From Candidatus Nomurabacteria bacterium (GTDB lineage Bacteria; Patescibacteriota; Minisyncoccia; Phycocordibacterales; UBA918): a stretch of DNA of 64,000 nucleotides. The translations under genes and the position numbers were made by a program. Under the pieces are notes generated by a model, which made no database searches, was not told the DNA's origin, and saw only the letters and a list, made by a program, of their open reading frames with translations. Location of the stretch: positions 3,325 through 67,324 of the forward strand of contig JACKGC010000002.1 in assembly GCA_020632135.1 (NCBI GenBank), read 5' to 3'. Shown one piece after another: positions 13,185-30,490 of the stretch (its first letter is position 1; each line of letters starts with the position of its first letter).

Positions 13185-13197
13185 TCGAGCGCGCCGC

Positions 13198-13250: not shown

Positions 13251-13289
13251 CCAGGCAGGGGGAATCATTAACGAAATTAATACATTTAA

Positions 13290-13778
<489 letters not shown>

Positions 13779-13790
13779 AGTCACTATTTC

Positions 13791-14366: not shown

Positions 14367-14375
14367 TACAGCAGT

Positions 14376-15362: not shown

Positions 15363-15702
15363 CAACGAGTATAGAATCGCAATTGTTGGACCGGCCGACA
15401 CGGTATCTGGCTTCAAGGCGCTTGGAGTGGAGCCGTTTGCGGCTGCTGATGCTGAAGAGGCGCTTGAGCAACTCCGTCACATCAAGCAGCAAACACTCGA
15501 CCCTGAATCAAAGCAGAAGTATGCGATCGTGTGCATTATTGAAGACTTGGTGGCACTTGTTGATCAGGCTGAGTATGCGAAGGTAGTGGCGGGTGCGCTG
15601 CCGGCAGTCGTACTCTTGCCCGGACCTGAGGGCAGTAGCGGCTTTGCGATCGAGCGCTTGCGACGATTGGCGGAGCAGGCGGTTGGGTCGGCCATTATTT
15701 AG
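15349..15702 (+). CDS. V-type ATPase subunit F
   Basis: 117 aa with the IAIVGPADTVSGFKALGV N-terminus typical of subunit F. Overlaps ntpC by 14 nt. Confidence 0.85.
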   Translation: MSTTNNEYRIAIVGPADTVSGFKALGVEPFAAADAEEALEQLRHIKQQTLDPESKQKYAIVCIIEDLVALVDQAEYAKVVAGALPAVVLLPGPEGSSGFAIERLRRLAEQAVGSAII

Positions 15703-15706
15703 AGGT

Positions 15707-15731
15707 TGCGGCGGGCCGAAGGCCCGCCGCA
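15707..15731 (+). other. GC-rich intra-operon hairpin without a U-tract
   Basis: TGCGGCGGGCC-gaa-GGCCCGCCGCA immediately after the subunit F stop. A 137-nt gap follows before ntpA. Confidence 0.5.
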
Positions 15732-15838
15732 GAGACACATGCAGTAAGCATGTGATGAGCGTATCTCATTGAGATTCATTCATCACATTCTTTCTGGGAA
15801 GATCGAATGATTATTAAACTTAGAAGAAATTATTATTT

Positions 15839-17620
15839 ATGACGAACGAAACGAAAGACATCAAAGCGGGAGTGATCGAACGAGTCACAGGCCCTTTGGT
15901 GCGCGCCAACGGTATGAGTGAAGCCAAGCTCTACGAGGTGGTGAAAGTATCAGACGAGAAATTGCTCGGTGAGATCATCGAACTCCATGGTGACGTGGCG
16001 GCGATTCAGGTCTACGAAGAGACGGCAGGCATTGGCCCAGGAGACGTGGTCTATCGTACCGGACGCACGATGTCAGCTGCATTGGCGCCAGGACTCTTGG
16101 AGTCTATCTATGACGGTGTGCAACGACCGCTGAAAGATATTCAGGCTGCGTCTGGTGACTGCTACATCAAGCGCGGCATTGAAGCGCAGCCGATCGATCT
16201 TGAAAAGAAGTGGAGCTTCAAGCCAACTGTGAAAGTGGGTGACAAGGTACAGGAAGGTGACGTGCTCGGTGAAGTACAAGAAACCACACTCATCATGCAC
16301 AAGGTTATGGTGCCGCCAGGCGAAGGGGGAGTAGTTGCAACCATTCAAAGTGGTGATTTCAACGTCACGGAAATGATCGCTACGCTCACTCGTGATGACG
16401 ATTCAGTAGCGTCAATTGCGATGCTGCAATACTGGCCGATTCGTGCCGCTCGTCCAAAGACCAGTAAGATCTTCCCAGCGGAACCACTCCGCACTGGTGG
16501 TCGTTCGATCGACACTTTCTTCCCGATCGCAAAGGGTGGTGCCGGGTGTATTCCTGGTCCATTTGGTGCAGGCAAGACGGTAACGCAGCAGTCGATCGCG
16601 AAATTCTGTGACGCGGAGATCATCGTGTATATCGGGTGTGGTGAGCGCGGAAACGAGATGACAGAAGTGCTCGATGAATTCCCGCACCTCATCGACCCAA
16701 ACAGTGGTGAACCGCTCATGAAGCGAACGATCCTCATTGCGAACACCTCAAATATGCCAGTAGCAGCGCGTGAGGCATCGGTTTACACTGGCATCACCAT
16801 CGCCGAGTACTACCGTGACATGGGATACAACGTGGCGCTCATGGCTGACTCAACCTCACGTTGGGCTGAGGCGATGCGAGAAATTTCAGGCCGCCTAGAA
16901 GAAATGCCGGGTGAGGAAGGCTACCCAGCGTACCTCTCATCACGTACTGCAGAATTCTACGAGCGCGCTGGTATCGTGAAGGCACTCGGTAGTGATGATC
17001 GTGTTGGATCACTCACGGTGATCGGTGCGGTATCGCCACCAGGTGGAGACCTCTCTGAGCCAGTATCGCAGGCAACACTCCGCGTCACGAAGACCTTCTG
17101 GTCACTTGATGCTGACCTCGCATACAAGAAGCACTTCCCATCGATCAACTGGCTCAACTCATACTCACTTTACGCCCAGAACTTTGAGGGGTATTGGAAA
17201 GAGCAGATCGCTGAAGATTTTGCTGAGGTTCGCACTACCGCGATGACCCTGCTTGAAAAGGAATCGAAGCTCCTTGAGATCGTTCGGCTCGTGGGTATGG
17301 AGTCTCTCAGTAACGGTGACCGTCTTATTCTCGAAGTGGCGCGTATGATCCGGGAAGACTTCCTGTTCCAAAACGCCTTTGACAAGGATGATGCGTATAC
17401 ACCACTTGAGCGGCAGTATGGCATTCTTAGATCGATCGTGAGCATATTTGAGGTAGCACAGGAAGTGATCGACCAACCTGAGTTTGAGTTTGCGACTCTG
17501 ACCGCTATCCCAAGCTTTGCAGAAATTGCTCGCCTCAAAGACAAACTCCAGTGGACAAAGGATGATTATCAGAAATTCCAAGATACGCTCCGCGCCGAGA
17601 TCAGCGCTCTAATCGCGTAA
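15839..17620 (+). CDS. ntpA: V-type ATPase catalytic subunit A
   Basis: Walker [10 protein letters not shown] and the V/A-type non-homologous insert. Length 593 aa. Confidence 0.97.
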
Positions 17621-17634
17621 GTAACGTACGAAAT

Positions 17635-19029
17635 ATGAGTAACAAAGAATACACAGACATTTCTTCGATTGCCGGACCGCTCATGGTGGTGGAAGGGGTT
17701 GAGGGAGTGAAGTATGAAGAGCTGGTTGAGGTGAATGTGGCTGGTGAGAATGTGCCACGCTTCGGCAAGGTGCTCGATATTGCTAAAGACAAAGCGGTAG
17801 TGCAGATGTTTGCCTCAACTACGGGTATGACCGCAGAGGGAACCCGCGCACGTTTCCGTGGCGAAACCCTCAAGCTTGGTGTGTCTGAGGACATGCTGGG
17901 TCGCGTGTTCAACGGTGCTGGTGAGGTAGCTGACGGTGGTCCGGAGATCGTGCCGGAGCAACGACGCGACATTGCCGGTGAGCCGATCAATCCATACTCA
18001 CGTGAGTTCCCAAACGACTTCATCCAAACGGGGGTATCATCGATCGACGTCATGAACACGCTCGTACGTGGCCAGAAGCTTCCAATTTTCTCCGGAGCTG
18101 GTCTCCCACACTCACGACTCGCGGCACAGATCGCGCGACAGGCTTCGGTAAAGGACGGAAGCGACTTCGCGATCGTCTTTGCAACCCTGGGTGTGTCCTT
18201 TGAGGAAGCTGAATACTTCCGCCGAGAATTCGAAGAGGCAGGCGCACTTGAGCGTTCAGTACTCTTCATCAACACTGCCGCCGACCCAGTGGTTGAGCGT
18301 GTGTCGACGCCGCGCATGGCGCTCACAACCGCAGAGTACCTTGCCTTTGAAAAGGGTAAGCACGTGCTCGTGATCCTTACCGACCTCACCAACTACTGTG
18401 AAGCACTTCGTGAAGTGTCTTCAGCTCGTAAGGAGGTGCCAGGTCGTCGTGGCTACCCAGGGTATCTCTACACCGACCTTTCAACTATTTACGAGCGAGC
18501 TGGTCGTGTGAAAGGCAAGCAGGGAACCATCACGCAGATCCCGATCCTCACCATGCCGGACGATGACAAGACCCACCCAGTGCCGGACCTTACCGGCTAC
18601 ATCACTGAAGGGCAGTTCGTGGTATCGCGCGAACTCTACCGCAAGGGCGTTTTTCCGCCGGTAGATGTACAGGGTTCACTCTCACGCCTCTGGTCTGCCG
18701 GAGTGGGTGAAGGGAAGACTCGCGCCGATCACTCGGCCCTCAAGGACCAGCTCTTTGCATCATACGCAACTGGTCGTGAAGTGCGTGAGCTCGCGGTGGT
18801 GCTCGGTGAAGCGTCGCTCGACGATACTGACCGTGCTCACCTTAAGTTCGCTGATGCGTTCGAACGAGAGTTTGTAGGGCAGGGAGAGTTTGAAAATCGC
18901 TCGGTGGAGGAATCTCTCGACCTTGGCTGGAAGCTCCTCACTATGCTCCCACGCACCTCACTAAAGCGTGTGAAGCCAGAGCAAATTGATAAGCATATGT
19001 CATCTGTAAGCTCGGAAGAAAAGATATAG
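17635..19029 (+). CDS. ntpB: V-type ATPase subunit B
   Basis: 464 aa with the typical B-subunit motifs SGAGLPH and YPGYLYTDL. Confidence 0.97.
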
Positions 19030-19169
19030 TATTTATTGGAGCGTTCCAGGAATTTGCGGCGGGGAAAAGCCTGAGCTTTGCATACAGAAAATACATTCGC
19101 AAGCTCATTATTTTCCAGCAAAATTCGGAACTAAATTCATAATATGCCCTTCAGGCATTTATTCATTCA

Positions 19170-19805
19170 ATGGCAATCCTCAAAGTCAACCCAACCCGAG
19201 TCTCACTCCTTCGTCTCAAGAAGGAATTAAAGACTGCGCAAAAGGGACATAAACTTCTCAAAGACAAGCGAGACGGACTCGTGAAGAAGTTCATGGCGAT
19301 CATTCACGAGACCAAGGCTTTGCGTGAGAGCGTGGAGGAGCGGCTCGGTTCAGCGTTTGATTCATATGCTCGAGCGAGTGGTATGGCTTCAGCGGCAGCA
19401 CTCAACACCGCCTTCATGGTGCCAAACGCCAAGATCGACCTGGGAGTCAAGATCAACAGTGTCATGTCAGTCAAGATCCCTGAATTTGAGATTGAAAAGA
19501 AAGGGTCTGCTTTTTCGTACGGTATGCTCGAAACGACCGGTGACCTCGATAACGCCATGGTGAAGTTCGATGCGGTGTTTGTTGATATTTTGAAACTGGC
19601 AGAGTTGGAAAAGACCGCCGAAAACTTGGCAGCGGAAATTGAAAAGACCCGTCGGCGCGTGTCTGCTCTTGAGAACGTACGTATTCCAAACCTCAATGAC
19701 ACGATCAAGTTCATCACCATGCAGCTCGATGAACGCAACCGCGACGCGGTAGTCTCTACTATGCGCGTGAAGGCGATGATCGTGGCGAAGGAGACCTCTG
19801 AGTAG
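19170..19805 (+). CDS. ntpD: V-type ATPase subunit D
   Basis: MAILKVNPTRVSLLRLKKELKTAQKGHKLLKDKRD is the canonical subunit D N-terminus. Confidence 0.95.
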   Translation: MAILKVNPTRVSLLRLKKELKTAQKGHKLLKDKRDGLVKKFMAIIHETKALRESVEERLGSAFDSYARASGMASAAALNTAFMVPNAKIDLGVKINSVMSVKIPEFEIEKKGSAFSYGMLETTGDLDNAMVKFDAVFVDILKLAELEKTAENLAAEIEKTRRRVSALENVRIPNLNDTIKFITMQLDERNRDAVVSTMRVKAMIVAKETSE

Positions 19806-19840: not shown

Positions 19841-19868
19841 ACAGCCCGACGTATGTCGGGCTGTGTTT
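19841..19868. terminator. Bidirectional terminator
   Basis: ACAGCCCGAC-gtat-GTCGGGCTGT. A-run upstream and GTTT downstream. Confidence 0.7.
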
Positions 19869-19873: not shown

Positions 19874-20140
19874 CTACAAGTTGTCTGCATTACTGATTGT
19901 CGCACGTGTCAGTGCTCGTACTGTAAAACCGTAACAGTACTCGTTGGTCGGGTCGGGTGTGACTGACCCGGCTTCAAACAGGTACAGATCGCAGCCGTTA
20001 ATGGTGATCAAGCCAGGGAACGACCAGTCGATCTCCTGCGCTGGTCCAGGGAACTTGATCAGCTGGTTGTTGATGGTGAGCTCAGCCGTCTGAGCTATAC
20101 CGGCAATGCAGAGAGAAAGAACAAGTAGGACAGATCTCAT
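19874..20140 (-). CDS. Small secreted hypothetical protein
   Basis: Signal-peptide-like MRSVLLVLSLCIAGIAQTA. AGGAGG lies 8 nt upstream of ATG 20140. Confidence 0.5.
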   Translation of the reverse strand: MRSVLLVLSLCIAGIAQTAELTINNQLIKFPGPAQEIDWSFPGLITINGCDLYLFEAGSVTPDPTNEYCYGFTVRALTRATISNADNL

Positions 20141-20192
20141 GTGTAGCACCTCCTGTAGTGCCTCTTTGTCATCTCATATTTGTGAGTAAAAA

Positions 20193-21062
20193 TCAACTGA
20201 ATTCTTTTGTGTGCCAGAGTTGGTTGGTGGCGGGGGTGAAGCGCGCGACGCTAAAGCTTTCGGTCTTGGCGAGCTGTTGGAGTTCGGCTTCAGAGAGCAT
20301 GAGCGCGGTGGTGGCAAAAGCATCAGCGTCGCGCGCTGAGTCGGCTTTAATAAATGACGCTACTCGCGGCGCTGTGTCATTGGTCACGATGTGCGTGTAC
20401 GTTTGCTCGTGGCTCTGCCAAATGCGCTTAAACGGGCTGGAAGCAGCAAAGCCTTGATTGAGGAGGGTGGTGCGATGAATAAAATGTCGTGCTTTAGTCG
20501 GGTGCTCGAGGTAGATCTCGATCGGCTCCTCTTGCTCGCTTGTGGCGTACATATCGCCGCCGCCGTTGATAAGAAAGTACTTAAGCGCAAATTCTGTCTG
20601 CAGAATTCGCGCAAGTTCGTCGATCAAGTATCCTTTCCCAAAGCCACCAATGTCGACATTGCCATGAAGCAGTTCGATCTTTTCTTCAGAGATGAGGAGG
20701 TCAGTAATTGGGTTCCCAGGGGTTTCGTTTTCTGGTTCGCGAGATTCGAATGAGTACGTAGCGTCGTAGCCGCGCGCTTCGAGGATGTGGCCAGTGAGAA
20801 GGTTGAAGTGGGTGTTAGTGCGCAAATACAGCCCTTTGCCGTACTGCAGAAGCGCGCGGCAAGCGTCATCGGGCTGGTGTAGTGCACGCTCACGATTAAG
20901 AGTTGAGATGAGTGAGTCAGGTAAAAAACGTGAGTACTTTGCTTCGTATTCACGCGTAAAACCCTCGAGGCGGCCGAAGGCCGCCTCGAGGGTTGCTGTC
21001 GAAGCTTTATCAAAAATGGTGATCCACCATTTGGTACCAAGTGCTTCGAATTCAGTTTGCAT
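20193..21062 (-). CDS. apbE: FAD:protein FMN transferase (ApbE family)
   Basis: ApbE-like sequence (MQTEFEALGTKWWITIF..., GGFGKGYLIDE, INGGGDMY). The start is trimmed to ATG 21062 because the longer ORF overlaps the upstream gene. Confidence 0.85.
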   Translation of the reverse strand: MQTEFEALGTKWWITIFDKASTATLEAAFGRLEGFTREYEAKYSRFLPDSLISTLNRERALHQPDDACRALLQYGKGLYLRTNTHFNLLTGHILEARGYDATYSFESREPENETPGNPITDLLISEEKIELLHGNVDIGGFGKGYLIDELARILQTEFALKYFLINGGGDMYATSEQEEPIEIYLEHPTKARHFIHRTTLLNQGFAASSPFKRIWQSHEQTYTHIVTNDTAPRVASFIKADSARDADAFATTALMLSEAELQQLAKTESFSVARFTPATNQLWHTKEFS

Positions 21063-21069
21063 GTAGCTA

Positions 21070-21543
21070 CTAGGCGCTTTCCGCGAGAATGTTTTCAATG
21101 GCTCGGTTGAATGCACCGGTGGTAAGTGAAGCACCGCCAACTCGTGAGAGATCAAGCTCATCGATCTGCTTGCCAATGATCGCTTCCTTGTATGCTCCTT
21201 CAAAACGTTGCGCATTAGGATCTACTTCAGCACCTTGACTGTACACAATATTGGCATCGGTGATCACTCCATTATTTGTGGTGAGAGTGACGTTGAGTAG
21301 GTACTCATTATTCGCCGGAGTCAGGTAGGTCACCGAAGTGGTGTGTGCTCCGTCGGGAATTGTTGAAGCGCTAACCACCTCTGTGTTCACTTCGGTATCG
21401 CCCGCAACGAGAATGTCCGTTGAGGCTTCTGGAGAGTTGGTCTCTTCCTGGGCCATGGTCGGCTCTGGTGCGTCTTCCGACTTCATGAGTGCAAAGCCAA
21501 CTGCAACAAGGACCACAACAATAATGCCAATAATGTATGCCAT
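21070..21543 (-). CDS. Membrane-anchored FMN-binding-domain protein (probable ApbE substrate)
   Basis: N-terminal TM helix. C-terminal VGGASLTTGAFNRAIENI resembles the FMN_bind flavinylation region ([ST]GA[ST]-like). Confidence 0.75.
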   Translation of the reverse strand: MAYIIGIIVVVLVAVGFALMKSEDAPEPTMAQEETNSPEASTDILVAGDTEVNTEVVSASTIPDGAHTTSVTYLTPANNEYLLNVTLTTNNGVITDANIVYSQGAEVDPNAQRFEGAYKEAIIGKQIDELDLSRVGGASLTTGAFNRAIENILAESA

Positions 21544-21620
21544 ACAGCTAGATTACTTTATTTTTTAAACTTAATGTTCTCATGATAATATACCTGGCTT
21601 GTATTGCAAGCGGTGGGTGG

Positions 21621-22304
21621 TTATACCGCAGCTTGAGCTTCAATGGTGTCGAGGGCTTTGTTGAATGCTTTTGTGGTGAGTGATGCGCCGCCAATGCGCG
21701 AAGTCTGTATTCCATCCAGGGCTTCTCCCACGACGTAACTCGCGTATGCTTTATCGAAGCGTCGAGTATACGAATCCTTCGCTGTTCGTGAATCATATGT
21801 CACATTGACTGCGGTGATCATGTCGTCTGTGATGGTCACGGATACACCCATGGTGTAGTTGTGGCTTGGGACTCGGTAGTCGACAGAGGTGGTGTAGGTA
21901 CCGTTTGCAAAAGTATTCGCTGGTACTGTCGGTGCCGGAGTAGGTGTGGGAGTAGGGGATGGGGCTGGAGTTGGCTCTGGGGAAGAAGATGGTGTTTGTT
22001 CAGGGGTCGGGTTTTGTACTGATGTGCGGATCGGAGTATTGGAAACTGACAGTTCGTTTTCAATCACCATTGGTTCAGGTGTTGTCACTGGTTCTGTGTC
22101 TGTTTCAATCATCACGAGCTCCGCCTCCTGGTGTGGCGTAGTGCTTGGGTGTGCTTCGCTTAATTCAGTACTGACGACATCTTTCAGTTCCGTCAGGGTC
22201 GGGCTGGCGGAAGTAAGGCGCTGGTCTTTGGTGTTGCTAGGTTCATACAAAGTGAAACCGACGGCAACCACAACGAGAGTAAGAACGGCAATGATATACG
22301 GCAT
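21621..22304 (-). CDS. Membrane-anchored FMN-binding-domain protein with a Pro/Thr-rich linker (paralog)
   Basis: TM helix, PEPTPAPSPTPTPTPAPT linker, C-terminal IGGASLTTKAFNKALDTI. Start at ATG 22304 (22358 is an alternative). Confidence 0.7.
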   Translation of the reverse strand: MPYIIAVLTLVVVAVGFTLYEPSNTKDQRLTSASPTLTELKDVVSTELSEAHPSTTPHQEAELVMIETDTEPVTTPEPMVIENELSVSNTPIRTSVQNPTPEQTPSSSPEPTPAPSPTPTPTPAPTVPANTFANGTYTTSVDYRVPSHNYTMGVSVTITDDMITAVNVTYDSRTAKDSYTRRFDKAYASYVVGEALDGIQTSRIGGASLTTKAFNKALDTIEAQAAV

Positions 22305-22398
22305 ACAAGTGAAATTATTTAGAGCAATGTAACGTAACATATTGGATGTAATGGTCAATTCTCATAGGGTATATGGGGTGATACACTACATACGTTAC

Positions 22399-23931
22399 AT
22401 GGTGCATTTACTTTCAAAACCATTTCATTCACTACAACAATTCGTTGACCGCATCGGTATGTACCGATTAGTACTTGGGTCTCTGTTTGTACTGGCGTTC
22501 TGTTCCGTTCTGGCTGGCTTTACTGGTGACCTTGCATACAGTGGCCTTAGTCAGATCTTTGCGCTCGCGCTCGCGCTCTTGGTAGCGCTGTCGCTCAACT
22601 GGGTCATCGCGCTTATTACCAAAATACCGGCCAATCACGAGTCGGCCGCCATCACAGCGTTGATCTTATTTTTCTTAACCATTCCAGAGGAGAATATTTT
22701 TGCAAACTGGCCCTTGGTGCTGGCTGTTGTGATTGCTATCCTCTCTAAATTTCTCATCACTACCAGGAGGCAACATTTCCTCAACCCGGCTGCGTTTGGT
22801 GCAGCCGCGCTGAGCCTCACAGGGGTGTACATTTTTAATTGGTGGGTGGGAAACCCGACATTGTTCATTCCGCTGATTATCTTCGGCACACTGGTGGTCA
22901 TGAAAGTCCGTAAGTGGGTACCGGTTCTGGCATTTCTGGGAGTTAGTTTGATTGTGTATCTGGCTGAGTCGTTCAGTAATGATGTCTTCCTACATGAGGC
23001 GACCCAAACATTCTTTCTGTCTGGGCCAGCGCTCTTCCTGGCATTCTATATGCTGACTGAACCTTTCACCATGCCCGCCATGAAAGGACCGCAGTTCCTG
23101 TATGGAGGGTTGGTCGGGTTTCTTTCCAGCACCTCGATGTTTTCTGCTTGGCTCTACATCTCACCAGAACTTGCGCTGGTTATGGCGAACATGCTTATGC
23201 TCCCGTGGCGCCTGCGACAAAAACTGTTTCTTGAGTTTATGGAAAAGCGTCAGATCGCGCAGGATACCTGGGAATTCATTTTCAAGAAACCAAAGGGATT
23301 TTCGTTTCAGGCTGGTCAATACTTAGAATGGATGCTGCCGCACGAAGCGGTGGACAGCCGGGGCCCGCGGCGGTATTTCACTATCGCCTCGGCACCGACA
23401 GAAAATACGGTCCGTTTGGCATTCAAGTTGGTTGAGCAAGGGAGTTCATACAAGCGAGAGCTCATGAAACTTGATGTTGGAGAGAAGATCATTGCCAGTC
23501 AGTTAGCCGGCGACTTTGTGTTGCCGTCAGATTCCGGAGTCAAACTTGGCTTCATCGCTGGCGGCATCGGGGTGACGCCGTTCCGGAGTCATATCCAGTT
23601 CATGGCGGACAGTGGACAAGTGCATGATACGAAGCTTTTATACTGTTGCAATACGATGGCGGAGCTGGCCTATAACAATGAGTTCGCCGCTGCCGCGACT
23701 GCGTTTCCTCTCGAGGTGATTCCGGTCATTGCCAAGGAGGAAGTGGCAGCGCCGCTGGAGCGCGGGTATGTGACAGTCGATATGCTCACGCGGCGGGTAC
23801 CCGACTATCTCGAGCGTGTTTGGTATCTTTCAGGTCCACCACCAATGGTCAATGCGTACACGAAATTGCTCCATGATGCAGGGGTGCCGAGCGCCCACAT
23901 CATCTGCGATTTCTTCCCTGGTTTGGCATAA
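22399..23931 (+). CDS. Fusion protein: RnfD/NqrB-like polytopic membrane domain plus an FNR-like FAD/NAD(P)H-binding reductase domain
   Basis: The N-terminal half is hydrophobic, with the RnfD-like segments PANHESAAITALILFF and FLNPAAFGAAAL. The C-terminal half has RRYFTIAS (RxY[ST] FAD motif) and GGIGVTPF (NAD(P)H motif). Confidence 0.75.
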   Translation: MVHLLSKPFHSLQQFVDRIGMYRLVLGSLFVLAFCSVLAGFTGDLAYSGLSQIFALALALLVALSLNWVIALITKIPANHESAAITALILFFLTIPEENIFANWPLVLAVVIAILSKFLITTRRQHFLNPAAFGAAALSLTGVYIFNWWVGNPTLFIPLIIFGTLVVMKVRKWVPVLAFLGVSLIVYLAESFSNDVFLHEATQTFFLSGPALFLAFYMLTEPFTMPAMKGPQFLYGGLVGFLSSTSMFSAWLYISPELALVMANMLMLPWRLRQKLFLEFMEKRQIAQDTWEFIFKKPKGFSFQAGQYLEWMLPHEAVDSRGPRRYFTIASAPTENTVRLAFKLVEQGSSYKRELMKLDVGEKIIASQLAGDFVLPSDSGVKLGFIAGGIGVTPFRSHIQFMADSGQVHDTKLLYCCNTMAELAYNNEFAAAATAFPLEVIPVIAKEEVAAPLERGYVTVDMLTRRVPDYLERVWYLSGPPPMVNAYTKLLHDAGVPSAHIICDFFPGLA

Positions 23932-23985
23932 GAGTTGTGCGTAGCCACACGAAACCCGACCACACTTACTGATACAATAGAATTG

Positions 23986-26982
23986 ATGAAACGAACGAAC
24001 GCGTTGGTCGCGATAGCATTTTTATTTGGGAGTCTCACTTCGCCGTTGGTGGCATTAGCAGCAGATGGTCAGGGTTTTTGGTGCTCACTTTTTGGCTGGG
24101 CAGTGCGTCCGTTTGGTTGGTGTGAGATCACTGAAGTGGTTGAGGTGGTGATAGACAAGAACACGCAAGTGGCGGCAGTGATCGGCCATCAGCCATTTGT
24201 GAGTGGTGTGTCAACCAACTCAGATGATGCTCAATTGATTGCATTTGCCAGTACATCGCAGCCAATTACGTACGAGACCGTAACCAATGAATACATCACT
24301 ATCGAGCAGACTGGCGTGACCCCTGAAATGTTAGACCGGCGTACCACTGAGCTGCTCATGTACATCAATTCGCTGTCACATGGCCAGGCGACCGTGGTGG
24401 CAACTACCAGCGAAGGATTATCTACCCGTGAGTACGTACTGAAGTCGGTCGATCGGGTGTATGAAGTGACTAGTGATGCGCGCCGGGACATTCTTGTGCA
24501 GGCGGAATTCACCAGCCCAACATTGTCTGACGCAGTCTTAAGCGGCACCACGTACGCATCGGGCTGGTTCGGGGTTGGCACCAGCTCACCCTCTGATGTG
24601 TTGTCGGTCAGTGGCGCGATCTATTTAGGCTCAGCGGCACCAAGCAACATTACTAACCGCCTCTATAATGTGAGCGGGGATCTCTATTGGAATGGTTCTA
24701 TCCTCTCTGGATCCAGCACTGCTAATTGGTCAGCGGTCGCGGGTGATGTATTTCGTCTCACGGGCAATGTGGGGATCGGCACAAGTACGCCAGGAGATAC
24801 GCTCACCATTGCCGGCACGCTATCGGCTGGAACCACTACCGCGCGCATCGTCGACACGGGTGGTGAGGTGTGTAATGTTGAAGCGTATGGTGCGGTGGGT
24901 GATAATGCAACGCTCAACGACGCCGCGATCGCGGCCGCGATCGCGGCGTGTGGTGATGGCGGTACAGTTTATTTCCCTATGGGTCAGTACCGCATTGCCA
25001 ATCCAATTGTGCTGGATCGACCAATTACCTTGCGTGGTGCATACTCACCGCGCTGGTCATATTCCAGCACACCACGCAGTTCTATTCGAGCCGACTTCGG
25101 TTCATTTTCTGGCGCAGCACTCATCCATGTACGGGATCGAACTATCTCTGGTGAGGTTGATCACAATAATGGTGGTCGCATAGAGTACTTGAGCCTAGAC
25201 GGCGGTTCGGCCAGTACCGACGTCGATGGTATTTACTTTGAGGGTCTAGTGCGCGACTGGAAGCTCACCGATGTCGACATTTCGCAGGTGACGGGCAATG
25301 GCTTTGAGGCCGCGGTGGGTGCCGGTAGTGGCAACCCACGAGGTTTTACCATTCGTGGCCTCTCGATCTACAGTTCCGATGGGCACGGCTTTAGAGCCAC
25401 CGCACTGAATGATTCCTACGTGGAAGACCTCTTGTCAGTCGGCAATGCGTTGCGCGGGATCTACCTGTCCTCAATTGGTGAGACTAAGTTCAACAACTCG
25501 CGTGCGGTGTTTAACGGCCTTACCGGTCTCTATATTGATGGGTCGTCAGCCAATGGTGGGTTGATGTTCACTGATTTTTCCACCGACCGCAACGACCGGC
25601 ACGGCGTTCGCATTTCGCTCACTGGTACGACCACCGTCACTTTTAATGGACTCTTAACACGTCGTGATGGTGCCAACACAAGCGCTGGTACGGAAACTCC
25701 GTACGCGGGCCTGGCTGTCATTGGTACGTCAAGCGCACAAGTAGCTCCGGTGTTTGTGAATGGTCTGACGCAGATCGTGGGGGTTGATGATGCGGGTGCA
25801 CCGCCACTAGCACCGCTTGTGGGAGTGCGGGTGACCAACGCTTCATATGTGAAAGTGGACGGGCAGCTGTGGGGTGTGACGGCACCATATCAGGATGATG
25901 GTGGTAATGGCCACTTTATTATCGCGGAGGATTCTATTCTCAAGACGGGGATAGTTGGTATTACCGAAGCGGTGCCAACGTTGTTTCATGACAAATTCAT
26001 TGCTACCACCTCGGGACTGTATTACGACGGTCGAGTCAGTATTGGCAGTACGACCGGTAGTCGGTTGTTTAACATCACTGCACCGGCGCAGGCTGGCGCA
26101 CGGTTCCATGACACGACCAATGATGTTATTTTCGATATGCGAGCTGAAGACTACCAAGGTTTCTTTGGTACGTTCTCCAACCATCAGCTACGTTTTCAGA
26201 CCAACAACCTCTCTCGTCTGACGATTGATACTGATGGTGATATTGGAATTGGTACTACTAGTCCAGACAGTGAGCTGGATGTTATTGGTACGATCCAGTC
26301 GTCAGACCTCTTGGGTGGTGCGACGACGCTCACGACAGACGCCAATGGAAATATTATCCGGAATCCTTCAGACAGACGGCTCAAGACAAATATTACTGAC
26401 ATCGGTGGAGCGCTCGAGATGACACTCGCCCTGCGCGGTGTGCGCTATCAGTGGCTTGATGAAGAGCGATTTGGCGAGCAGATGGAGATCGGTTTTATTG
26501 CGCAGGAGGTAGATAAGGTTGTTCCGGAAGCGGTCCGTAAAGGGGGTGACTATTGGTCGCTCAATACCCAGAATCTCATTGCGGTGGTGGTCGAAGGGAT
26601 GAAGGAAATGTGGCAGACGGTGACCGGCAACCAAGCGAAGATCGCAGAGCTTGAGGAGCGGTTGGCAGAAGTAGAGGCGGAACTTGGGCTGGAGCAGCCG
26701 GTGGTGGAGCTAGAGCTACCGAGTGGCACTGAAATAGAAACGATGTCACCCTCAAGTGAGGTGGCGACTACAACCATATCGAGTACGGAAGAACTGGTTG
26801 CGCCAGCAGCAACCACGACCGAGTCGGCAGCTGGTTTGGAGCCAGTAGTTAGTGAGCCAGAATTAGAAGCAGGGTCGCTTGATGCTGCTGTAGTGCCGAC
26901 CGCGGAACCAACTCCGGCGGAACCAGTGGTAGGGGAGGACGAAGCCGAGGAAGACACGGCGGTAATTGATCCGAGTGAGTAA
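23986..26982 (+). CDS. Large surface protein: tail-fibre-like repeats, right-handed beta-helix (pectate-lyase/tailspike-like) and a C-terminal S74 intramolecular chaperone domain
   Basis: N-terminal TM/signal. GVGTSSPSDVLSVSG, GIGTSTPGDTLTIAG and IGIGTTSPDSELDVIG tail-fibre motifs. VEAYGAVGDNATLNDAAIAAAIAACGDGGTVYFPMGQYRI (from ~24871). SDRRLKTNI...GFIAQEV...NLIAVVVEGMKE (26368-26690), followed by an acidic tail. Confidence 0.8.
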   Translation: MKRTNALVAIAFLFGSLTSPLVALAADGQGFWCSLFGWAVRPFGWCEITEVVEVVIDKNTQVAAVIGHQPFVSGVSTNSDDAQLIAFASTSQPITYETVTNEYITIEQTGVTPEMLDRRTTELLMYINSLSHGQATVVATTSEGLSTREYVLKSVDRVYEVTSDARRDILVQAEFTSPTLSDAVLSGTTYASGWFGVGTSSPSDVLSVSGAIYLGSAAPSNITNRLYNVSGDLYWNGSILSGSSTANWSAVAGDVFRLTGNVGIGTSTPGDTLTIAGTLSAGTTTARIVDTGGEVCNVEAYGAVGDNATLNDAAIAAAIAACGDGGTVYFPMGQYRIANPIVLDRPITLRGAYSPRWSYSSTPRSSIRADFGSFSGAALIHVRDRTISGEVDHNNGGRIEYLSLDGGSASTDVDGIYFEGLVRDWKLTDVDISQVTGNGFEAAVGAGSGNPRGFTIRGLSIYSSDGHGFRATALNDSYVEDLLSVGNALRGIYLSSIGETKFNNSRAVFNGLTGLYIDGSSANGGLMFTDFSTDRNDRHGVRISLTGTTTVTFNGLLTRRDGANTSAGTETPYAGLAVIGTSSAQVAPVFVNGLTQIVGVDDAGAPPLAPLVGVRVTNASYVKVDGQLWGVTAPYQDDGGNGHFIIAEDSILKTGIVGITEAVPTLFHDKFIATTSGLYYDGRVSIGSTTGSRLFNITAPAQAGARFHDTTNDVIFDMRAEDYQGFFGTFSNHQLRFQTNNLSRLTIDTDGDIGIGTTSPDSELDVIGTIQSSDLLGGATTLTTDANGNIIRNPSDRRLKTNITDIGGALEMTLALRGVRYQWLDEERFGEQMEIGFIAQEVDKVVPEAVRKGGDYWSLNTQNLIAVVVEGMKEMWQTVTGNQAKIAELEERLAEVEAELGLEQPVVELELPSGTEIETMSPSSEVATTTISSTEELVAPAATTTESAAGLEPVVSEPELEAGSLDAAVVPTAEPTPAEPVVGEDEAEEDTAVIDPSE

Positions 26983-27024
26983 ATTTACAAAACACACATT
27001 TTGTGTTATGGTATGAAACAGGTA

Positions 27025-27045
27025 GGCCGGCGCTTCGCGCCGGCC
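27025..27045 (+). terminator. Rho-independent terminator
   Basis: GGCCGGCGC-ttc-GCGCCGGCC then GATTCTTTC. Confidence 0.6.
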
Positions 27046-27083
27046 GATTCTTTCATTGCTCTTTGAAAAGAGGAGGATAACAC

Positions 27084-28532
27084 ATGGTAACCGCAAGAAT
27101 GTGGTACGCCTTGCTTGTGGCTGCAATGCTGCATGTCGGGGTCGCACAATCAGCTGTAACACAAGCGTGTTTGGCGAAGGACGCGGAGTGGGATGCAGCC
27201 ATGCATACTGCTCGTATGCGGGAGCTCGGCATTACTTGTGCCACGGTCTACTACAGCCTAATGTCCAAAGATAATCGCAAACATCCCTATGAGTGGGTGC
27301 GCAAGCACTACCTCGACGCTGGGTATCGGGTTGTGTTGGTACTAAAGCTTGATGCCGGTAACAGCACTACCGAATCGCGTTCAGTAGGAAATTTACAGGC
27401 AGTGGTAGGAGGGTACTATGACACCGCACTTGATGAGCTAATTGCGAGGATCAAACGAGATGGTCGGCCGATCGTAGTGCGTCCATTTCATGAGATCGAT
27501 GGGGATTGGCATCCATGGGGTATGTATACCTCAGGTAACTCACCACAGCTTGCTGTGGCAGCAGTGGAACATATTGCAGCGCGCTTTCGTGATGCGAATG
27601 CTCCGGTGATGATCGAGATCAACTTCAACCGGCGTGATGGCAAAGGTAAGGTGCTTGGTGACGCCGAGTACTACATACCGCGCTTCAACGAGTTTGTTGA
27701 TGCCTATTCGATCTCTACCTACAACCGCTGCGGGACCGCGAAGCGGTACACGACCGAACAATCGTTCGCGACAGAATTTAAACCTGCCTACGATCGACTG
27801 CTCGGACTCACTACTAAGCCAATCAATGTCGCTGAGACATCGACTTCAGGGTTGTGTGGTGCTCGTCTACCGTGGTTCCGTGAACTGTTTCGAACTATCG
27901 ACTCATCATTTACTCAGGTGGAGTCCGTGACGTTCGTATTTGGTACGGTGCCAGTCGGTGCAGTGTCAAACGACCGCCCTATTCAATGGGGTTTTTCATC
28001 GACTGCTGAACGAGCGCAATTCAAAGCGTTCTTGCAGCAGTCATGGCCGCAGCTACCGCTCGTACCAAGTAAGGGTAGGGAAACCAGACCCTCGCTTGAC
28101 TTTCGGGCGCCCTGGAGTGCGTTCGCTCAACTCACGTATCCCTTTGAGGAAACGTCTAATCCAGCTCTAAACCCGGTCACGGGTACTGAGTTCGGCAAGC
28201 AAGAGCTCGTCTTGCGTTCGCAGTTCAAACAGCGGTTGCTGTTTGACGCTGGGAACGACTTCGAGGTCGGGCCTGGCGTATACGTGGGGTTGGTCGAGTC
28301 GACCAACGATGATCAGTGGTGGAATAACCATGGCACCTTAGGTGCCACACTCGGGCTCTACCGGGAGGTTGAACGCTCAGGTGCGGTCGATTGGGGTGGT
28401 TGGTCGGTGGAGCTGTATGTCGAACGACGACAGTTCACCACCGACGCACCATCTCGCTACCGTGGCGACGGAGAAACCCAAGCTGGCATACGTGCTGGTC
28501 TCAACATCGGCGGCGATTGGACTCGCCACTAG
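27084..28532 (+). CDS. Secreted GH26-like glycoside hydrolase domain protein with a beta-strand-rich C-terminal region
   Basis: Signal peptide MVTARMWYALLVAAMLHVGVAQSA. VVRPFHEIDGDWHPWG resembles the GH26 RPxHEMNGxWFWWG motif. AGGAGG RBS. Confidence 0.55.
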   Translation: MVTARMWYALLVAAMLHVGVAQSAVTQACLAKDAEWDAAMHTARMRELGITCATVYYSLMSKDNRKHPYEWVRKHYLDAGYRVVLVLKLDAGNSTTESRSVGNLQAVVGGYYDTALDELIARIKRDGRPIVVRPFHEIDGDWHPWGMYTSGNSPQLAVAAVEHIAARFRDANAPVMIEINFNRRDGKGKVLGDAEYYIPRFNEFVDAYSISTYNRCGTAKRYTTEQSFATEFKPAYDRLLGLTTKPINVAETSTSGLCGARLPWFRELFRTIDSSFTQVESVTFVFGTVPVGAVSNDRPIQWGFSSTAERAQFKAFLQQSWPQLPLVPSKGRETRPSLDFRAPWSAFAQLTYPFEETSNPALNPVTGTEFGKQELVLRSQFKQRLLFDAGNDFEVGPGVYVGLVESTNDDQWWNNHGTLGATLGLYREVERSGAVDWGGWSVELYVERRQFTTDAPSRYRGDGETQAGIRAGLNIGGDWTRH

Positions 28533-28540
28533 GAGGTCTT

Positions 28541-30100: not shown

Positions 30101-30187
30101 CAGGAAATCGCGACGTGACAGAATGAAGGACAGGAAGCGTAGTAGTTCGTGTGTAACACAGTTCTTAAGAAATTAGGAGGTGTCAAA

Positions 30188-30460
30188 ATGACACAAAATG
30201 TTTTGGGCTCAGCCCAAAAAGTACCCTGGTGGTACGGTCTCACTCGTGAGGCACGGCTGATCCGTCGCTTCCATGCACTGAAGGCAGCGGGGCAGACCCC
30301 GGCTATTCGCCTCAAAGGCGAGCAGCTTGCTGCGGAAGCATTGGAAGCTCCGGCTCGTCCGGGTGGTTCCTGGAAAGTGTTCCAGGAACATCGAGAAGTT
30401 CCGGTTACGACCGCCACGATCGACAAGCTCGATTGGTCTCGGAGCCTCTACAACGACTGA
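30188..30460 (+). CDS. Hypothetical protein
   Basis: AGGAGG 7 nt upstream of ATG 30188. A terminator follows. Confidence 0.5.
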   Translation: MTQNVLGSAQKVPWWYGLTREARLIRRFHALKAAGQTPAIRLKGEQLAAEALEAPARPGGSWKVFQEHREVPVTTATIDKLDWSRSLYND

Positions 30461-30490
30461 TCCTCTCTCGCTCCTTGCGGAGCAATAACC

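What the first reader, a model, noticed from the sequence alone, without database searches (positions are those of the whole stretch)
19874..23931. ApbE, two extracytoplasmic FMN-binding proteins and an RnfD-like/FNR-fusion reductase: candidate flavin-based transmembrane electron-transfer module next to the V-ATPase
- **Components.** The minus-strand genes encode an ApbE flavin transferase and two TM-anchored FMN_bind-type proteins with GGASLTT sites (flavinylation-like). Across from them is a 510-530-aa fusion of an RnfD/NqrB-like polytopic domain with a cytoplasmic FAD/NAD(P)H reductase domain (RRYFTIAS, GGIGVTPF).
- **Proposed function.** Together these could carry electrons from NAD(P)H across the membrane to covalently flavinylated exoproteins.
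- **Context.** ApbE-associated extracytosolic redox systems have been surveyed in the literature. I cannot tell whether this particular minimal set (RnfD-FNR fusion plus paired FMN_bind proteins, with no other Rnf or Nqr subunits in view) is a described class.
Basis: partly seen in the sequence, partly recalled or inferred. Interest (0 to 1): 0.55.

Follow-up and report, generated by a model that had tools for sequence, protein, structure and literature searches.

The report
Minimal NQR/RNF-like flavin electron conduit
This gene cluster of a tiny uncultured (Parcubacteria) bacterium is a genuine but already described "NQR/RNF-like" module, predicted to pass electrons from NAD(P)H across the membrane to flavin-carrying surface proteins; it has one unexplained feature: its flavin-attaching enzyme has no export signal.

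Summary
Window 19874-23931 holds five genes:
- a leaderless ApbE flavin transferase;
- two paralogous membrane-anchored FMN_bind proteins with an aligned acceptor Ser (…SR[VI]GGASLTT);
- an orphan 88-aa secreted protein;
- divergently, a 510-aa fusion of an RnfD/NqrB-fold membrane domain with an FNR/NqrF-type FAD/NAD(P)H domain.

Its open question has an answer: this is the "NQR/RNF-like system" of Méheust et al. 2021 (eLife), modelled by Huang et al. 2024. Those authors defined it by this PF03116+PF00175 fusion in a flavinylation gene cluster and found it mainly in Actinobacteria and CPR. GenBank already annotates four of the five genes by function.

In 68 of 80 homologous loci from several phyla, FMN_bind, ApbE and the fusion lie together. 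No other Rnf/Nqr subunit is nearby. V-ATPase adjacency is only clade-level synteny.

New details:
- None of the 76 fusions with a recognisable HxxNPAA motif has the RnfD flavinylation loop.
- There are two operon subtypes in which ApbE type and acceptor motif co-vary perfectly.
- All 69 operon ApbEs lack any signal peptide, although their substrates are exported. Neither paper mentions this in the text I searched.

No experimental characterisation of the function was found. It is a new member of a known kind, of modest interest.

The parts
22399..23931 (+). 510-aa fusion protein: RnfD/NqrB-like polytopic membrane domain plus cytoplasmic FNR/NqrF-type FAD/NAD(P)H domain. GenBank names it 'RnfABCDGE type electron transport complex subunit D'.
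   Evidence: Pfam PF03116 and PF00175 are both above their cut-offs. A 100%-identical NCBI protein exists, P0001. AF2 models and Foldseek support both domains.
22399..23229 (+). RnfD/NqrB-fold membrane domain (aa 1-277). It ends in the basic stretch RLRQKLF, which leads into the cytoplasmic domain.
   Evidence: AF2 model: pLDDT 85.4, pTM 0.84. The top 15 PDB matches are RnfD chains (9eri_D, 8rbq_D, 7zc6_D, 8ahx_D) and NqrB chains. Urea and Amt transporters follow only at E > 0.1.
22774..22857 (+). HFLNPAAFGAAALSLTGVYIFNWWVGNP: the conserved RnfD/NqrB 'NPA' segment followed by a short loop. From my own knowledge, RnfD/NqrB carry their flavinylated SGAT threonine in a longer loop at this position. 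No [ST]GA[ST] motif is present here.
   Evidence: Alignment A1. None of the 76 fusion homologues with the NPA motif has an [STG]G[AS][ST] motif in the 70 residues from it. Huang et al. 2024 report the same for the class.
23230..23931 (+). FNR-type FAD-binding and NAD(P)H-binding domain. It contains RRYFTIAS (23368-23391) and GGIGVTPF (23560-23583).
   Evidence: The profile search of PDB gives NqrF FAD domains and other FNR-family reductases at E 2e-14 to 1e-6. Foldseek hits have probability 1.0. NCBIfam gives FNR-family hits.
21621..22304 (-). FMN_bind paralogue 2 (227 aa). It has an N-terminal hydrophobic anchor MPYIIAVLTLVVVAVGFTL, a Pro/Thr-rich linker and a C-terminal FMN_bind domain. The predicted acceptor is Ser208 in SRIGGASLTT (21672-21701).
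   Evidence: It is 40% identical to paralogue 1. It is placed in alignment A2. The NCBI protein MCB9812703.1 uses the same start.
21070..21543 (-). FMN_bind paralogue 1 (157 aa). It has the N-terminal hydrophobic anchor MAYIIGIIVVVLVAVGFAL. The predicted acceptor is Ser139 in SRVGGASLTT (21118-21147).
   Evidence: PF04205 at E 0.0035, below the cut-off. The family profile matches 8p2a at E 9.5e-9, with the Ser aligned to the T of its SGAT motif. NCBI names it 'FMN-binding protein', MCB9812702.1.
20193..21062 (-). ApbE-family FAD:protein FMN transferase (289 aa), leaderless. It starts MQTEFEALGTKWW, 7 nt after the stop codon of paralogue 1. Conserved motifs: GGFGKGYLID (20619-20648), the His in YTHIV (20385-20399) and DADAFATTA (20304-20330).
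   Evidence: PF02424 at 96.9 bits. It aligns to E. coli and Salmonella ApbE 4xgw and 3pnd. No hydrophobic segment lies upstream of the domain in any reading of the ORF. NCBI protein MCB9812701.1.
19874..20140 (-). 88-aa orphan ORF with a classical signal peptide (MRSVLLVLSLCIAGIAQTA). It is the last gene of the minus-strand transcription unit. Its membership in the module is unproven.
   Evidence: ORF. The only homologue in 5.8 billion proteins is itself. No Pfam hit. It is absent from relatives L081, L085 and L086.
19841..19864 (-). Terminator-like hairpin (10-bp stem, 7 G-C pairs, T-rich tail). It would close the FMN_bind2-FMN_bind1-ApbE-small ORF unit and lies just beyond the convergent V-ATPase D gene.
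   Evidence: This is a consensus scan only; the total count of such sites in the region is not above the shuffled expectation.
22305..22398 (.). 94-bp divergent intergenic region between FMN_bind paralogue 2 and the fusion gene. It is presumably a shared promoter region.
   Evidence: Gene starts come, and the sequence. No promoter-like match was found inside it, so this is an inference only.

Best explanation
The locus is a member of the bioinformatically defined NQR/RNF-like system, a two-component transmembrane electron conduit with its own flavin transferase.

**Proposed mechanism.**
1. NAD(P)H reduces FAD in the cytoplasmic FNR/NqrF-type domain of the 510-aa fusion.
2. Electrons cross the membrane through the RnfD/NqrB-fold domain. 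This domain has lost its own covalent-FMN threonine and presumably holds a non-covalent flavin.
3. Electrons arrive on FMN that ApbE has attached covalently to Ser139 and Ser208 of the two membrane-anchored FMN_bind proteins on the outer face.
4. These proteins then reduce an unidentified extracytoplasmic acceptor, such as Fe(III), O2 or soluble flavins or quinones.

In a fermentative Parcubacterium, a group generally described as lacking a respiratory chain (my own knowledge, not tested here), this would be a quinone-independent outlet for reducing equivalents.

**Shown here.**
- The domain identities and folds.
- A conserved acceptor Ser.
- Loss of the RnfD flavinylation site.
- Tight co-conservation of the three genes.
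- Absence of other Rnf/Nqr subunits nearby.

**Inferred.**
- The direction of electron flow.
- The flavin content.
- The topology.
- The acceptor.
- That ApbE really modifies the FMN_bind proteins.
For: **Domains.** (Pfam; NCBIfam; FNR/NqrF domain; RnfD/NqrB fold of the whole N-domain).

**FMN_bind identity and acceptor Ser.**

**ApbE active-site motifs.** They align with solved ApbEs.

**Co-conservation.**
- 68 of 80 loci from Patescibacteria, Chloroflexota, Alphaproteobacteria, Actinomycetota and Spirochaetota carry FMN_bind, ApbE and the fusion together; in nearly all of them as one co-directional, often overlapping operon.
- Close relatives keep the window's divergent layout.

**Enzyme and substrate co-variation.**
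- Long 'FEAIGT' ApbE pairs with an xG[SA]SLT-type acceptor motif lacking the conserved Asp, in 21 of 21 cases.
- Short 'MGMP' ApbE pairs with the DxxSGAT-type motif (alanine before the acceptor residue) in 47 of 47 cases, 38 of them with the Asp.

**FMN_bind partners are exported.**
- Most carry MKK plus a hydrophobic anchor.
- All 9 actinobacterial members carry a lipobox.

**No other Rnf/Nqr genes.** None lies among the neighbouring genes scanned: 496-19805 upstream and 23935-37978 downstream.

**Literature.** It proposes the same model for the class (PMC8238504; PMC10979944).
Against: - No member of the class was found to be characterised experimentally in the library searched.
- The ApbE has no signal peptide or lipobox, here and in all 69 operon-encoded homologues. 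ApbE specificity has been reported to be localisation-controlled (title of Bertsova 2014, and the account of the two K. pneumoniae ApbEs in PMC12052999). How an exported domain gets flavinylated is therefore unexplained.
- The window's acceptor motif is non-canonical: G-G-A-S with Ser/Arg in place of the usual Asp at -6.
- The anchors of the window's FMN_bind proteins carry no flanking positive charges, so their orientation rests on homologues.
- The ApbE-motif co-variation could reflect shared operon phylogeny rather than enzyme-substrate fit.
- No acceptor is encoded in the conserved core.
Confidence: 0.65

Rival explanations
1. Same hardware, narrower role: an assimilatory ferric reductase. 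It would reduce extracellular Fe(III) or Fe-chelates for uptake rather than serve as a bulk redox outlet.
For: [quoted passage not shown] 23 of 80 loci carry a histidine kinase, and 20 of 80 an OmpR-type regulator, next to the operon. That fits a regulated, conditional function.
Against: No iron transporter or iron-related gene lies near the window locus or its close relatives. No recurrent iron-uptake family appeared among the conserved neighbours.
Confidence: 0.15
2. Flavinylation, and perhaps the flavin domain's working position, is on the cytoplasmic side. There are two versions. In the first, the leaderless ApbE modifies FMN_bind before or during export. In the second, in lineages such as this one whose anchors lack charge bias, the FMN_bind domain stays inside and shuttles electrons between the FNR domain and the membrane domain.
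For: - 0 of 69 operon ApbEs has an N-terminal hydrophobic segment, and most start at position 1-5 of the search profile built from these ApbEs.
- The window ApbE ORF has no hydrophobic stretch in any upstream extension.
- The organism otherwise uses ordinary signal peptides: the 88-aa ORF and the 1015-aa protein.
- Known cytosolic ApbEs serve cytosolic substrates (PMC12052999).
- The window-clade anchors (MPYII…, MAYII…) have no flanking Lys/Arg bias.
- 3 of 9 actinobacterial partners carry an RR motif compatible with Tat export of a folded, pre-flavinylated domain.
Against: - Actinobacterial partners all carry lipoboxes, and most others carry an MKK-type N-in anchor, so the domain is exported in most lineages.
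- Only a minority have RR motifs.
- The published AlphaFold-multimer model docks the FMN_bind subunit on the extracytosolic face, at the vacated NqrB flavin site.
- The RnfD/NqrB flavin site is reported as periplasmic.
Confidence: 0.15
3. A remnant or cryptic ion-translocating Rnf/Nqr-type pump that works together with the adjacent V-type ATPase.
For: The V-ATPase operon ends 69 bp from the module. The same adjacency is seen in L001, L009, L081, L086 and L087.
Against: - No RnfA/E/B/C/G or NqrA/D/E genes are present.
- V-ATPase genes are adjacent in only 2 of 80 representative loci and are absent in close relatives L083-L085, where TruB abuts the module instead.
- From my own knowledge of the solved complexes, current models place the membrane [2Fe-2S] centre in RnfA/E and NqrD/E, which are absent here.
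Confidence: 0.04

Closest known systems
NQR/RNF-like flavinylation-associated system (Méheust et al. 2021 eLife, PMC8238504; Huang et al. 2024, PMC10979944)
   Same: - It has the same defining fusion: a PF03116 membrane domain plus PF00175.
- It sits in the same kind of cluster, with ApbE and an NqrC/RnfG-like FMN_bind protein.
- It comes from the same taxa (CPR and Actinobacteria).
- The NqrB/RnfD flavinylation threonine is lost in the same way.
- No other Rnf/Nqr subunits are present.
   Different: - Two FMN_bind paralogues instead of one. This is shared with L085 and L033 only.
- A divergent instead of co-directional gene order.
- A non-canonical acceptor motif, SRxGGAS, with a Ser acceptor and no Asp.
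- An extra orphan secreted ORF.
- The leaderless state of the cognate ApbE is not mentioned in either paper, as far as text search shows.
Rnf complex (RnfD, RnfG and RnfC; PDB 9eri, 8rbq, 7zc6)
   Same: The membrane domain has the RnfD fold (TM-score 0.66-0.69). The partner is an RnfG-type FMN_bind protein. A cytoplasmic NAD(P)H-oxidising module is attached to RnfD, by fusion here and as RnfC in Rnf.
   Different: - It lacks RnfA, RnfE, RnfB and RnfC.
- RnfD's covalent FMN site is absent.
- The dehydrogenase is an FNR-type FAD domain, not RnfC.
- There is no return path, so electron flow is predicted to be one-way.
- There is no evidence of ion pumping.
Na+-NQR (NqrB, NqrC and NqrF; PDB 7xk3, 8a1t)
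   Same: It has an NqrB-fold domain. Its FAD/NAD domain is closest in sequence profile to the NqrF FAD domain (E 2e-14). It has an NqrC-like flavinylated partner.
   Different: - No NqrA, NqrD or NqrE.
- No NqrF 2Fe-2S ferredoxin domain.
- No covalent FMN in the NqrB-like part.
- No known quinone site.
- Electrons would run through the NqrB-like domain in the opposite direction to NQR.
Listeria-type flavin-based extracellular electron transfer (FmnB, PplA, Ndh2, EetA/B, DmkA)
   Same: An ApbE-family transferase acts with a surface-anchored FMN_bind protein carrying covalent FMN, which serves as the outer end of an NADH-fed electron outlet. PplA has two FMN_bind domains, and here there are two FMN_bind proteins. 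The comparison with Listeria rests on my own knowledge and on the account in PMC8238504.
   Different: The Listeria route uses Ndh2 and a demethylmenaquinone pool, and its FmnB is a secreted lipoprotein. Here no quinone step is implied, the membrane step is an RnfD-like domain, and the ApbE is leaderless.
NOX / ferric-reductase type enzymes (e.g. Streptococcus pneumoniae NOX, PDB 8qt6)
   Same: The overall logic is the same: one polypeptide with a polytopic membrane domain and a C-terminal FNR-type FAD/NAD(P)H domain moving electrons outward. The FNR domains match structurally.
   Different: The NOX membrane domain is a six-helix di-haem ferric-reductase domain. Here it is an RnfD/NqrB (urea/Amt-like) fold that presumably uses flavins and hands over to a separate flavinylated protein.

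Membership tests
NQR/RNF-like system (Méheust 2021, Supplementary file 2) | One protein with an N-terminal NqrB/RnfD domain (PF03116) and a C-terminal NqrF-type NAD-binding domain (PF00175) | tested here: met
   PF03116 scores 40.5 bits (cut-off 27.7) and PF00175 scores 43.9 bits (cut-off 22) in the 529/510-aa ORF. The definition is quoted.
NQR/RNF-like system (Méheust 2021, Supplementary file 2) | The fusion lies in a flavinylation-associated gene cluster, i.e. with ApbE and/or an FMN_bind gene within five genes | tested here: met
   ApbE and two FMN_bind genes lie directly across the divergent promoter region. The trio recurs in 68 of 80 loci.
NQR/RNF-like system (Méheust 2021, Supplementary file 2) | [quoted passage not shown] | tested here: inconclusive
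   SignalP was not available. Both FMN_bind proteins have an N-terminal 19-residue hydrophobic segment (Kyte-Doolittle mean 2.4-2.9). This looks like an uncleaved anchor without charge bias. The ApbE has none.
NQR/RNF-like system (Huang 2024) | The NqrB/RnfD-like subunit lacks the conserved flavinylated Thr | tested here: met
   There is a short loop after HFLNPAA with no [ST]GA[ST]. None of the 76 homologues tested has one.
NQR/RNF-like system (Huang 2024) | Only two apparent subunits; no other Nqr/Rnf subunits in the cluster | tested here: met
   The Pfam scan of the neighbouring ORFs (496-19805 upstream, 23935-37978 downstream) shows V-ATPase, glycan enzymes, UDG, Fpg and a recombinase, and no Rnf/Nqr families.
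RnfD / NqrB proper (PF03116, TIGR01946) | RnfD/NqrB membrane fold | tested here: met
   The top 15 Foldseek PDB hits of the N-domain model are RnfD and NqrB chains.
RnfD / NqrB proper (PF03116, TIGR01946) | Covalent FMN on a Thr in an SGAT motif in the loop after the NPA segment | tested here: not met
   The TIGR01946 score of 29.2 is far below its cut-off of 207. It should therefore not be filed as RnfD, contrary to the GenBank product name.
RnfD / NqrB proper (PF03116, TIGR01946) | Encoded with the RnfABCGE or NqrACDEF partners | tested here: not met
   and the conserved neighbourhood analysis.
FMN_bind domain (PF04205; NqrC/RnfG/PplA type) | Sequence membership of the domain family | tested here: met
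   The single window sequences are at or below Pfam's cut-off (18.4 vs 22 bits for one; none for the other). However, 18 of 21 aligned relatives hit PF04205 (best E 1.1e-10), and the family profile hits the solved FMN-binding domain 8p2a at E 9.5e-9.
FMN_bind domain (PF04205; NqrC/RnfG/PplA type) | [S/T]GA[S/T]-like flavinylation motif with a Ser/Thr acceptor | tested here: met
   GGAS has Ser139/Ser208 in the acceptor column, which is at least 90% conserved. This is a variant form: Gly replaces the first S/T, and the upstream Asp of DxxSGAT is absent.
FMN_bind domain (PF04205; NqrC/RnfG/PplA type) | Covalently bound FMN | not testable with these tools
   It needs in-gel UV fluorescence or mass spectrometry of protein co-expressed with the cognate ApbE.
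ApbE / Ftp FAD:protein FMN transferase (PF02424) | Sequence membership and conserved catalytic or metal-binding motifs | tested here: met
   PF02424 scores 96.9 bits. The alignment to 4xgw and 3pnd keeps GKGY, the His of (S/T)H(V/I)(I/V) and the DAxxT motif. The functional roles of these residues are from my own knowledge.
ApbE / Ftp FAD:protein FMN transferase (PF02424) | N-terminal signal peptide or lipobox, as in ApbEs that serve extracytoplasmic substrates | tested here: not met
   There is no hydrophobic segment upstream of the domain in the window ORF or in any of the 69 operon homologues.
FNR-like reductase module (FAD_binding_6 + NAD_binding_1) | Two-domain FAD/NAD(P)H fold with RxY[ST] and GGxGxxP motifs | tested here: met
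   NAD_binding_1 is above its cut-off. FAD_binding_6 scores 17.3, below its cut-off of 21.1. The profile and structure matches to NqrF-FAD, flavohaemoglobin and BenC-type reductases are strong. The motifs RRYFTIAS and GGIGVTPF are invariant in A1.

The most novel reading that the evidence does not exclude
In this whole class of conduits the dedicated flavin transferase works in the cytoplasm. The FMN_bind subunit would then be flavinylated before or during export, or in some lineages it would function on the inner face. Either reading would overturn the assumption that ApbE substrates are modified in the compartment where they work, and it would revise the published 'extracytosolic' model of NQR/RNF-like systems. 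The two co-varying ApbE and acceptor-motif subtypes would then be two specificity classes of such a cytosolic enzyme.
Probability: 0.2. Interest if true: 0.55.

Novelty: new member of a known kind. Interest (0 to 1): 0.3.

Why it matters
Parcubacteria and other CPR bacteria are generally regarded as obligate fermenters without respiratory chains or quinones (my own knowledge, not tested here). A self-contained, quinone-independent NAD(P)H-to-outside electron conduit is one of the few candidates for how they dispose of reducing equivalents or reduce external substrates such as iron.

The module is small: two or three proteins plus a maturation enzyme. It is widespread. The membrane domain alone has 981 representatives of 50%-identity clusters at E ≤ 1e-3, and 118 of the best 150 are of fusion length. 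It also occurs in culturable Mesorhizobium, Ktedonobacteria and Microbacteriaceae, so its biochemistry can be tested.

For this particular locus the value is confirmatory. It is a clean CPR example of a published class. It adds two testable details about that class: the leaderless ApbE and the two ApbE/motif subtypes.

Tried and rejected
- **Full-length model.** Foldseek with the full-length model returned only FNR-domain matches. I therefore modelled and searched the N-domain alone.
- **N-domain sequence search.** phmmer of the N-domain against PDB sequences found nothing. The RnfD/NqrB relation is visible only by Pfam profile and by fold.
- **88-aa ORF.** The homologue search found only the ORF itself, so no role can be assigned.
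- **Published gene table.** The 'NQR RNF-like' sheet of Méheust's Supplementary file 1 is truncated in the held copy. I could not read their SignalP calls for the ApbEs.
- **V-ATPase coupling: rejected.** Adjacency is found in 2 of 80 representative loci and in some close relatives, but not in L083-L085.
- **Tat export of a pre-flavinylated domain: not general.** Only 3 of 9 actinobacterial partners have an RR motif, and the CPR partners have none.
- **Read-through FMN_bind-ApbE fusion as a way to export ApbE: rejected.** The two genes are in different frames in the window, and their frame relation is inconsistent across loci (coordinates).
- **Conserved downstream acceptor gene.** None was found in the core. 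Only a histidine kinase/response regulator pair recurs, in about a quarter of loci.
- **Complex modelling.** An AlphaFold-multimer model of the fusion with FMN_bind could not be run with the tools given.

Full report
**1. What is in the sequence.**

Window 19874-23931 contains five ORFs. Exact-sequence look-ups show that GenBank already carries all of them from a 78.6-kb contig of a Candidatus Nomurabacteria MAG, with the starts I derived:

| Coordinates | Strand | Product | GenBank name |
|---|---|---|---|
| 19874-20140 | - | 88-aa protein with a classical signal peptide | hypothetical protein |
| 20193-21062 | - | 289-aa ApbE | FAD:protein FMN transferase |
| 21070-21543 | - | 157-aa FMN_bind paralogue 1 | FMN-binding protein |
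| 21621-22304 | - | 227-aa FMN_bind paralogue 2 | hypothetical protein |
| 22399-23931 | + | 510-aa fusion | RnfABCDGE type electron transport complex subunit D |

- A 10-bp-stem hairpin with a T-rich tail at 19864-19841 (-) would close the minus-strand unit. This is a consensus match only.
- The two transcription units diverge from a 94-bp spacer.

**2. Domain identities.**

- **ApbE.** It matches PF02424 at 96.9 bits. It aligns with E. coli and Salmonella ApbE structures, keeping the GKGY, His and DAxxT motifs.
- **Fusion, by sequence.**
  - It matches PF03116 (40.5 bits, cut-off 27.7), but only over profile positions 179-261.
  - It matches PF00175 (43.9 bits) and, weakly, FAD_binding_6.
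- **Fusion, N-terminal half by structure.**
  - Because the Pfam match covers only part of the membrane half, I modelled residues 1-277 alone (pLDDT 85.4, pTM 0.84).
  - The 15 best PDB matches are exclusively RnfD chains (A. woodii 9eri_D, A. vinelandii 8rbq_D and 8ahx_D, C. tetanomorphum 7zc6_D; TM-score 0.66-0.69) and V. cholerae NqrB chains.
  - Urea and ammonium transporters follow only at E > 0.1.
- **Fusion, C-terminal half.** It is an FNR-family module, closest by profile to the NqrF FAD domain (E 2e-14, and by structure). The RRYFTIAS and GGIGVTPF motifs are invariant in the alignment.
- **FMN_bind proteins.**
  - They are weak for Pfam individually: 18.4 bits against a cut-off of 22 for one, and no hit for the other.
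  - They are 40% identical to each other (E 2e-23).
  - 18 of 21 aligned relatives hit PF04205.
  - The family profile hits the solved FMN-binding domain 8p2a at E 9.5e-9. Its VSGATYTS aligns with the window's V/I-GGASLTT, which places Ser139 and Ser208 at the acceptor position.

**3. Co-conservation.**

- A pattern scan of one genome per GTDB species returned 80 loci encoding fusion homologues at 30-47% identity. They come from Patescibacteria, Chloroflexota/Ktedonobacteria, Mesorhizobium, Kaistia and Phyllobacterium, Microbacteriaceae and other Actinomycetota, and Spirochaetota.
- Iterated profiles built from the window's proteins found ApbE in 69 loci and FMN_bind in 70.
- In 68 of the 80 loci the three genes lie together. 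In nearly all of these they form a co-directional operon, FMN_bind then ApbE then fusion, often with overlapping stop and start codons.
- Several of the remaining loci are cut by contig ends.
- Closer relatives (55-73% identity; L081, L083-L087) keep the window's divergent layout. One of them, L085, also has two FMN_bind paralogues with the same LSR[VI]GGASLTT motif.
- Beyond the trio, only a histidine kinase (23 loci) and an OmpR-type regulator (20 loci) recur. No terminal reductase is part of the conserved core.
- The membrane domain has 981 representatives of 50%-identity clusters at E ≤ 1e-3. Of the best 150, 118 are 470-545 aa long, so this domain type occurs essentially as the fusion.

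**4. Context.**

- No other Rnf or Nqr subunit lies among the neighbouring genes scanned (496-19805 upstream and 23935-37978 downstream).
- Upstream are an ABC transporter, an aldolase, glycan enzymes, TruB and a complete V-type ATPase operon.
- Downstream are a tailspike-like protein, a GH26-like protein, a GT2, then UDG, Fpg and a serine recombinase.
- The V-ATPase adjacency recurs in L001, L009, L081, L086 and L087.
- It is absent from L083-L085, where TruB abuts the module, and from 78 of the 80 representative loci.
- The adjacency is therefore clade-level synteny, not evidence of coupling.

**5. Comparison with what is known.**

- Méheust et al. [quoted passage not shown] - They found 127 clusters, mainly in Actinobacteria and the candidate phyla radiation.
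- Huang et al. 2024 (PMC10979944, section 8) modelled the Ktedonobacter complex with AlphaFold-multimer.
  - They noted that the NqrB/RnfD-like subunit has lost its flavinylation threonine.
  - They suggested that the partner's covalent flavin samples the vacated site.
- The window locus meets the defining features (see the membership table).
- I confirmed the loss of the RnfD site here and in all 76 homologues with a recognisable NPA motif.
- Text searches found no experimental characterisation of the system.
- The GenBank name 'RnfD' is not accurate in the strict sense, because the covalent-FMN site and the Rnf partners are missing. TIGR01946 scores 29 against a cut-off of 207.

**6. What this analysis adds.**

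- **(a) Two operon subtypes with perfect co-variation.**
  - 'Long' ApbEs (about 280-300 aa, N-terminus …FEAIGT…) always accompany FMN_bind proteins whose acceptor motif is of the (S/T)(R/K)x(S/G/A)G(S/A)SLT kind, without the conserved Asp. This holds in 21 of 21 cases, and the window belongs to this subtype.
  - 'Short' ApbEs (about 245 aa, N-terminus MKxTRxLMGMP) always accompany the DxxSGAT-type motif, with alanine before the acceptor residue. This holds in 47 of 47 cases, and 38 of them carry the Asp.
  - This is compatible with enzyme-substrate co-evolution, but it could also simply reflect inheritance of the operon as a unit.
- **(b) No operon ApbE has an export signal.**
  - None of the 69 operon-encoded ApbEs has any hydrophobic segment ahead of the catalytic domain. 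Most begin at position 1-5 of the search profile built from these ApbEs, a few nucleotides after the FMN_bind stop codon.
  - The window ApbE has none in any upstream extension of its ORF.
  - Their partners, in contrast, are exported. Most carry an MKK-plus-hydrophobic anchor. All nine actinobacterial ones have a lipobox, and three of those have an RR motif.
  - Characterised ApbEs that serve periplasmic substrates are secreted lipoproteins. A leaderless paralogue in Klebsiella serves a cytosolic substrate, and the cited study's title describes the specificity as localisation-controlled (review PMC12052999, citing Bertsova 2014).
  - Neither class paper mentions this discrepancy, as far as text search shows.
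  - I could not resolve it. Tat export of a pre-flavinylated domain fits only a minority. A read-through fusion is excluded by the reading frames.
- **(c) Ambiguous anchor orientation in the window's clade.** The FMN_bind anchors here (MPYII…, MAYII…) have no flanking positive charges, so their orientation rests on homology with the other lineages.

**7. Mechanism, with status of each step.**

| Step | Status |
|---|---|
| NAD(P)H reduces FAD in the FNR domain | Inferred from family membership and conserved motifs |
| FAD passes electrons to a non-covalent flavin in the RnfD-like domain | Inferred from the fold and from Huang et al.'s model |
| That flavin passes electrons to covalent FMN on Ser139/Ser208 of the FMN_bind proteins at the outer face | Acceptor Ser shown by alignment; flavinylation and topology inferred |
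| Reduction of an external acceptor | Unknown |

- Outward electron flow would be electrogenic and would dissipate membrane potential.
- That could make the neighbouring ATP-driven V-ATPase physiologically relevant, but nothing in the data requires it.

**8. Verdict.**

- The finding is real and correctly interpreted.
- It is an instance of a published, still uncharacterised class, and four of its five genes already carry functional names in GenBank.
- Novelty: a new member of a known kind.
- Interest is modest (0.3). It is raised slightly by the leaderless-ApbE paradox and by the two ApbE/motif subtypes, both of which can be tested in culturable hosts.

Noticed in passing
window 23935-30100: Three genes lie here:
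- a 1015-aa secreted protein with a pectate-lyase-like beta-helix and a Peptidase_S74 (endosialidase chaperone) domain, so it resembles a phage tailspike;
- a 482-aa protein with a weak GH26 match;
- a 569-aa GT2 (chitin/cellulose-synthase-like) membrane glycosyltransferase.

Together they form a block of about 6-7 kb between the fusion gene and UDG/Fpg. In relatives L081, L085 and L086, UDG/Fpg follow the fusion within about 1 kb. The block therefore looks like a lineage-specific insertion.
   Followed up: partly
window 32000-46000, including 33199-34812 (-): A large serine recombinase (Resolvase, Recombinase and Zn_ribbon_recom domains) lies just beyond Fpg. It sits at the edge of a stretch with 41-42% G+C, against about 52% elsewhere, so this is probably an integrated mobile element. 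Relative L085 also has a serine recombinase directly after Fpg, which suggests a recurrent integration site.
   Followed up: partly
L001-L080 (all operon ApbE genes), window 20193-21062: All 69 ApbE genes encoded next to RnfD-FNR fusions lack any N-terminal signal or anchor, while their FMN_bind partners are exported (lipoboxes in Actinobacteria). The two papers on the class do not mention this.
   Followed up: partly
L055:4618-5486, L042:7002-7490, also L010, L014, L043, L047, L057: Seven fusion homologues have no ApbE or FMN_bind gene within about 5-8 kb of flanking sequence. In L055 the fusion is preceded by two small membrane-anchored ORFs. One of them ends …YAYHCSPHPYMKGTIEVTE, a type-1-copper-like Cys/His/Met motif, so it may be a cupredoxin partner instead of a flavoprotein. 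This is a motif-level observation only.
   Followed up: no
L001-L080, flanks of the operon: A sensor histidine kinase (23 loci) and an OmpR-type response regulator (20 loci) recur next to the FMN_bind-ApbE-fusion operon. This hints at conditional regulation. No such pair was seen next to the window locus.
   Followed up: no
window 9670-19805 versus L083-L085: The whole V-type ATPase operon (subunits I, c, AC39, F, A, B and D, plus a 191-aa ORF without a Pfam match at 13791-14366) sits between TruB and the ApbE gene in the window, and V-ATPase genes likewise precede ApbE in L081, L086 and L087. It is missing in L083-L085, where TruB directly abuts the module. The operon is thus a presence/absence polymorphism at a fixed site in this clade.
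   Followed up: partly
window 46518-52655 (-): A 2045-aa ORF, the largest in the window. I did not examine it.
   Followed up: no
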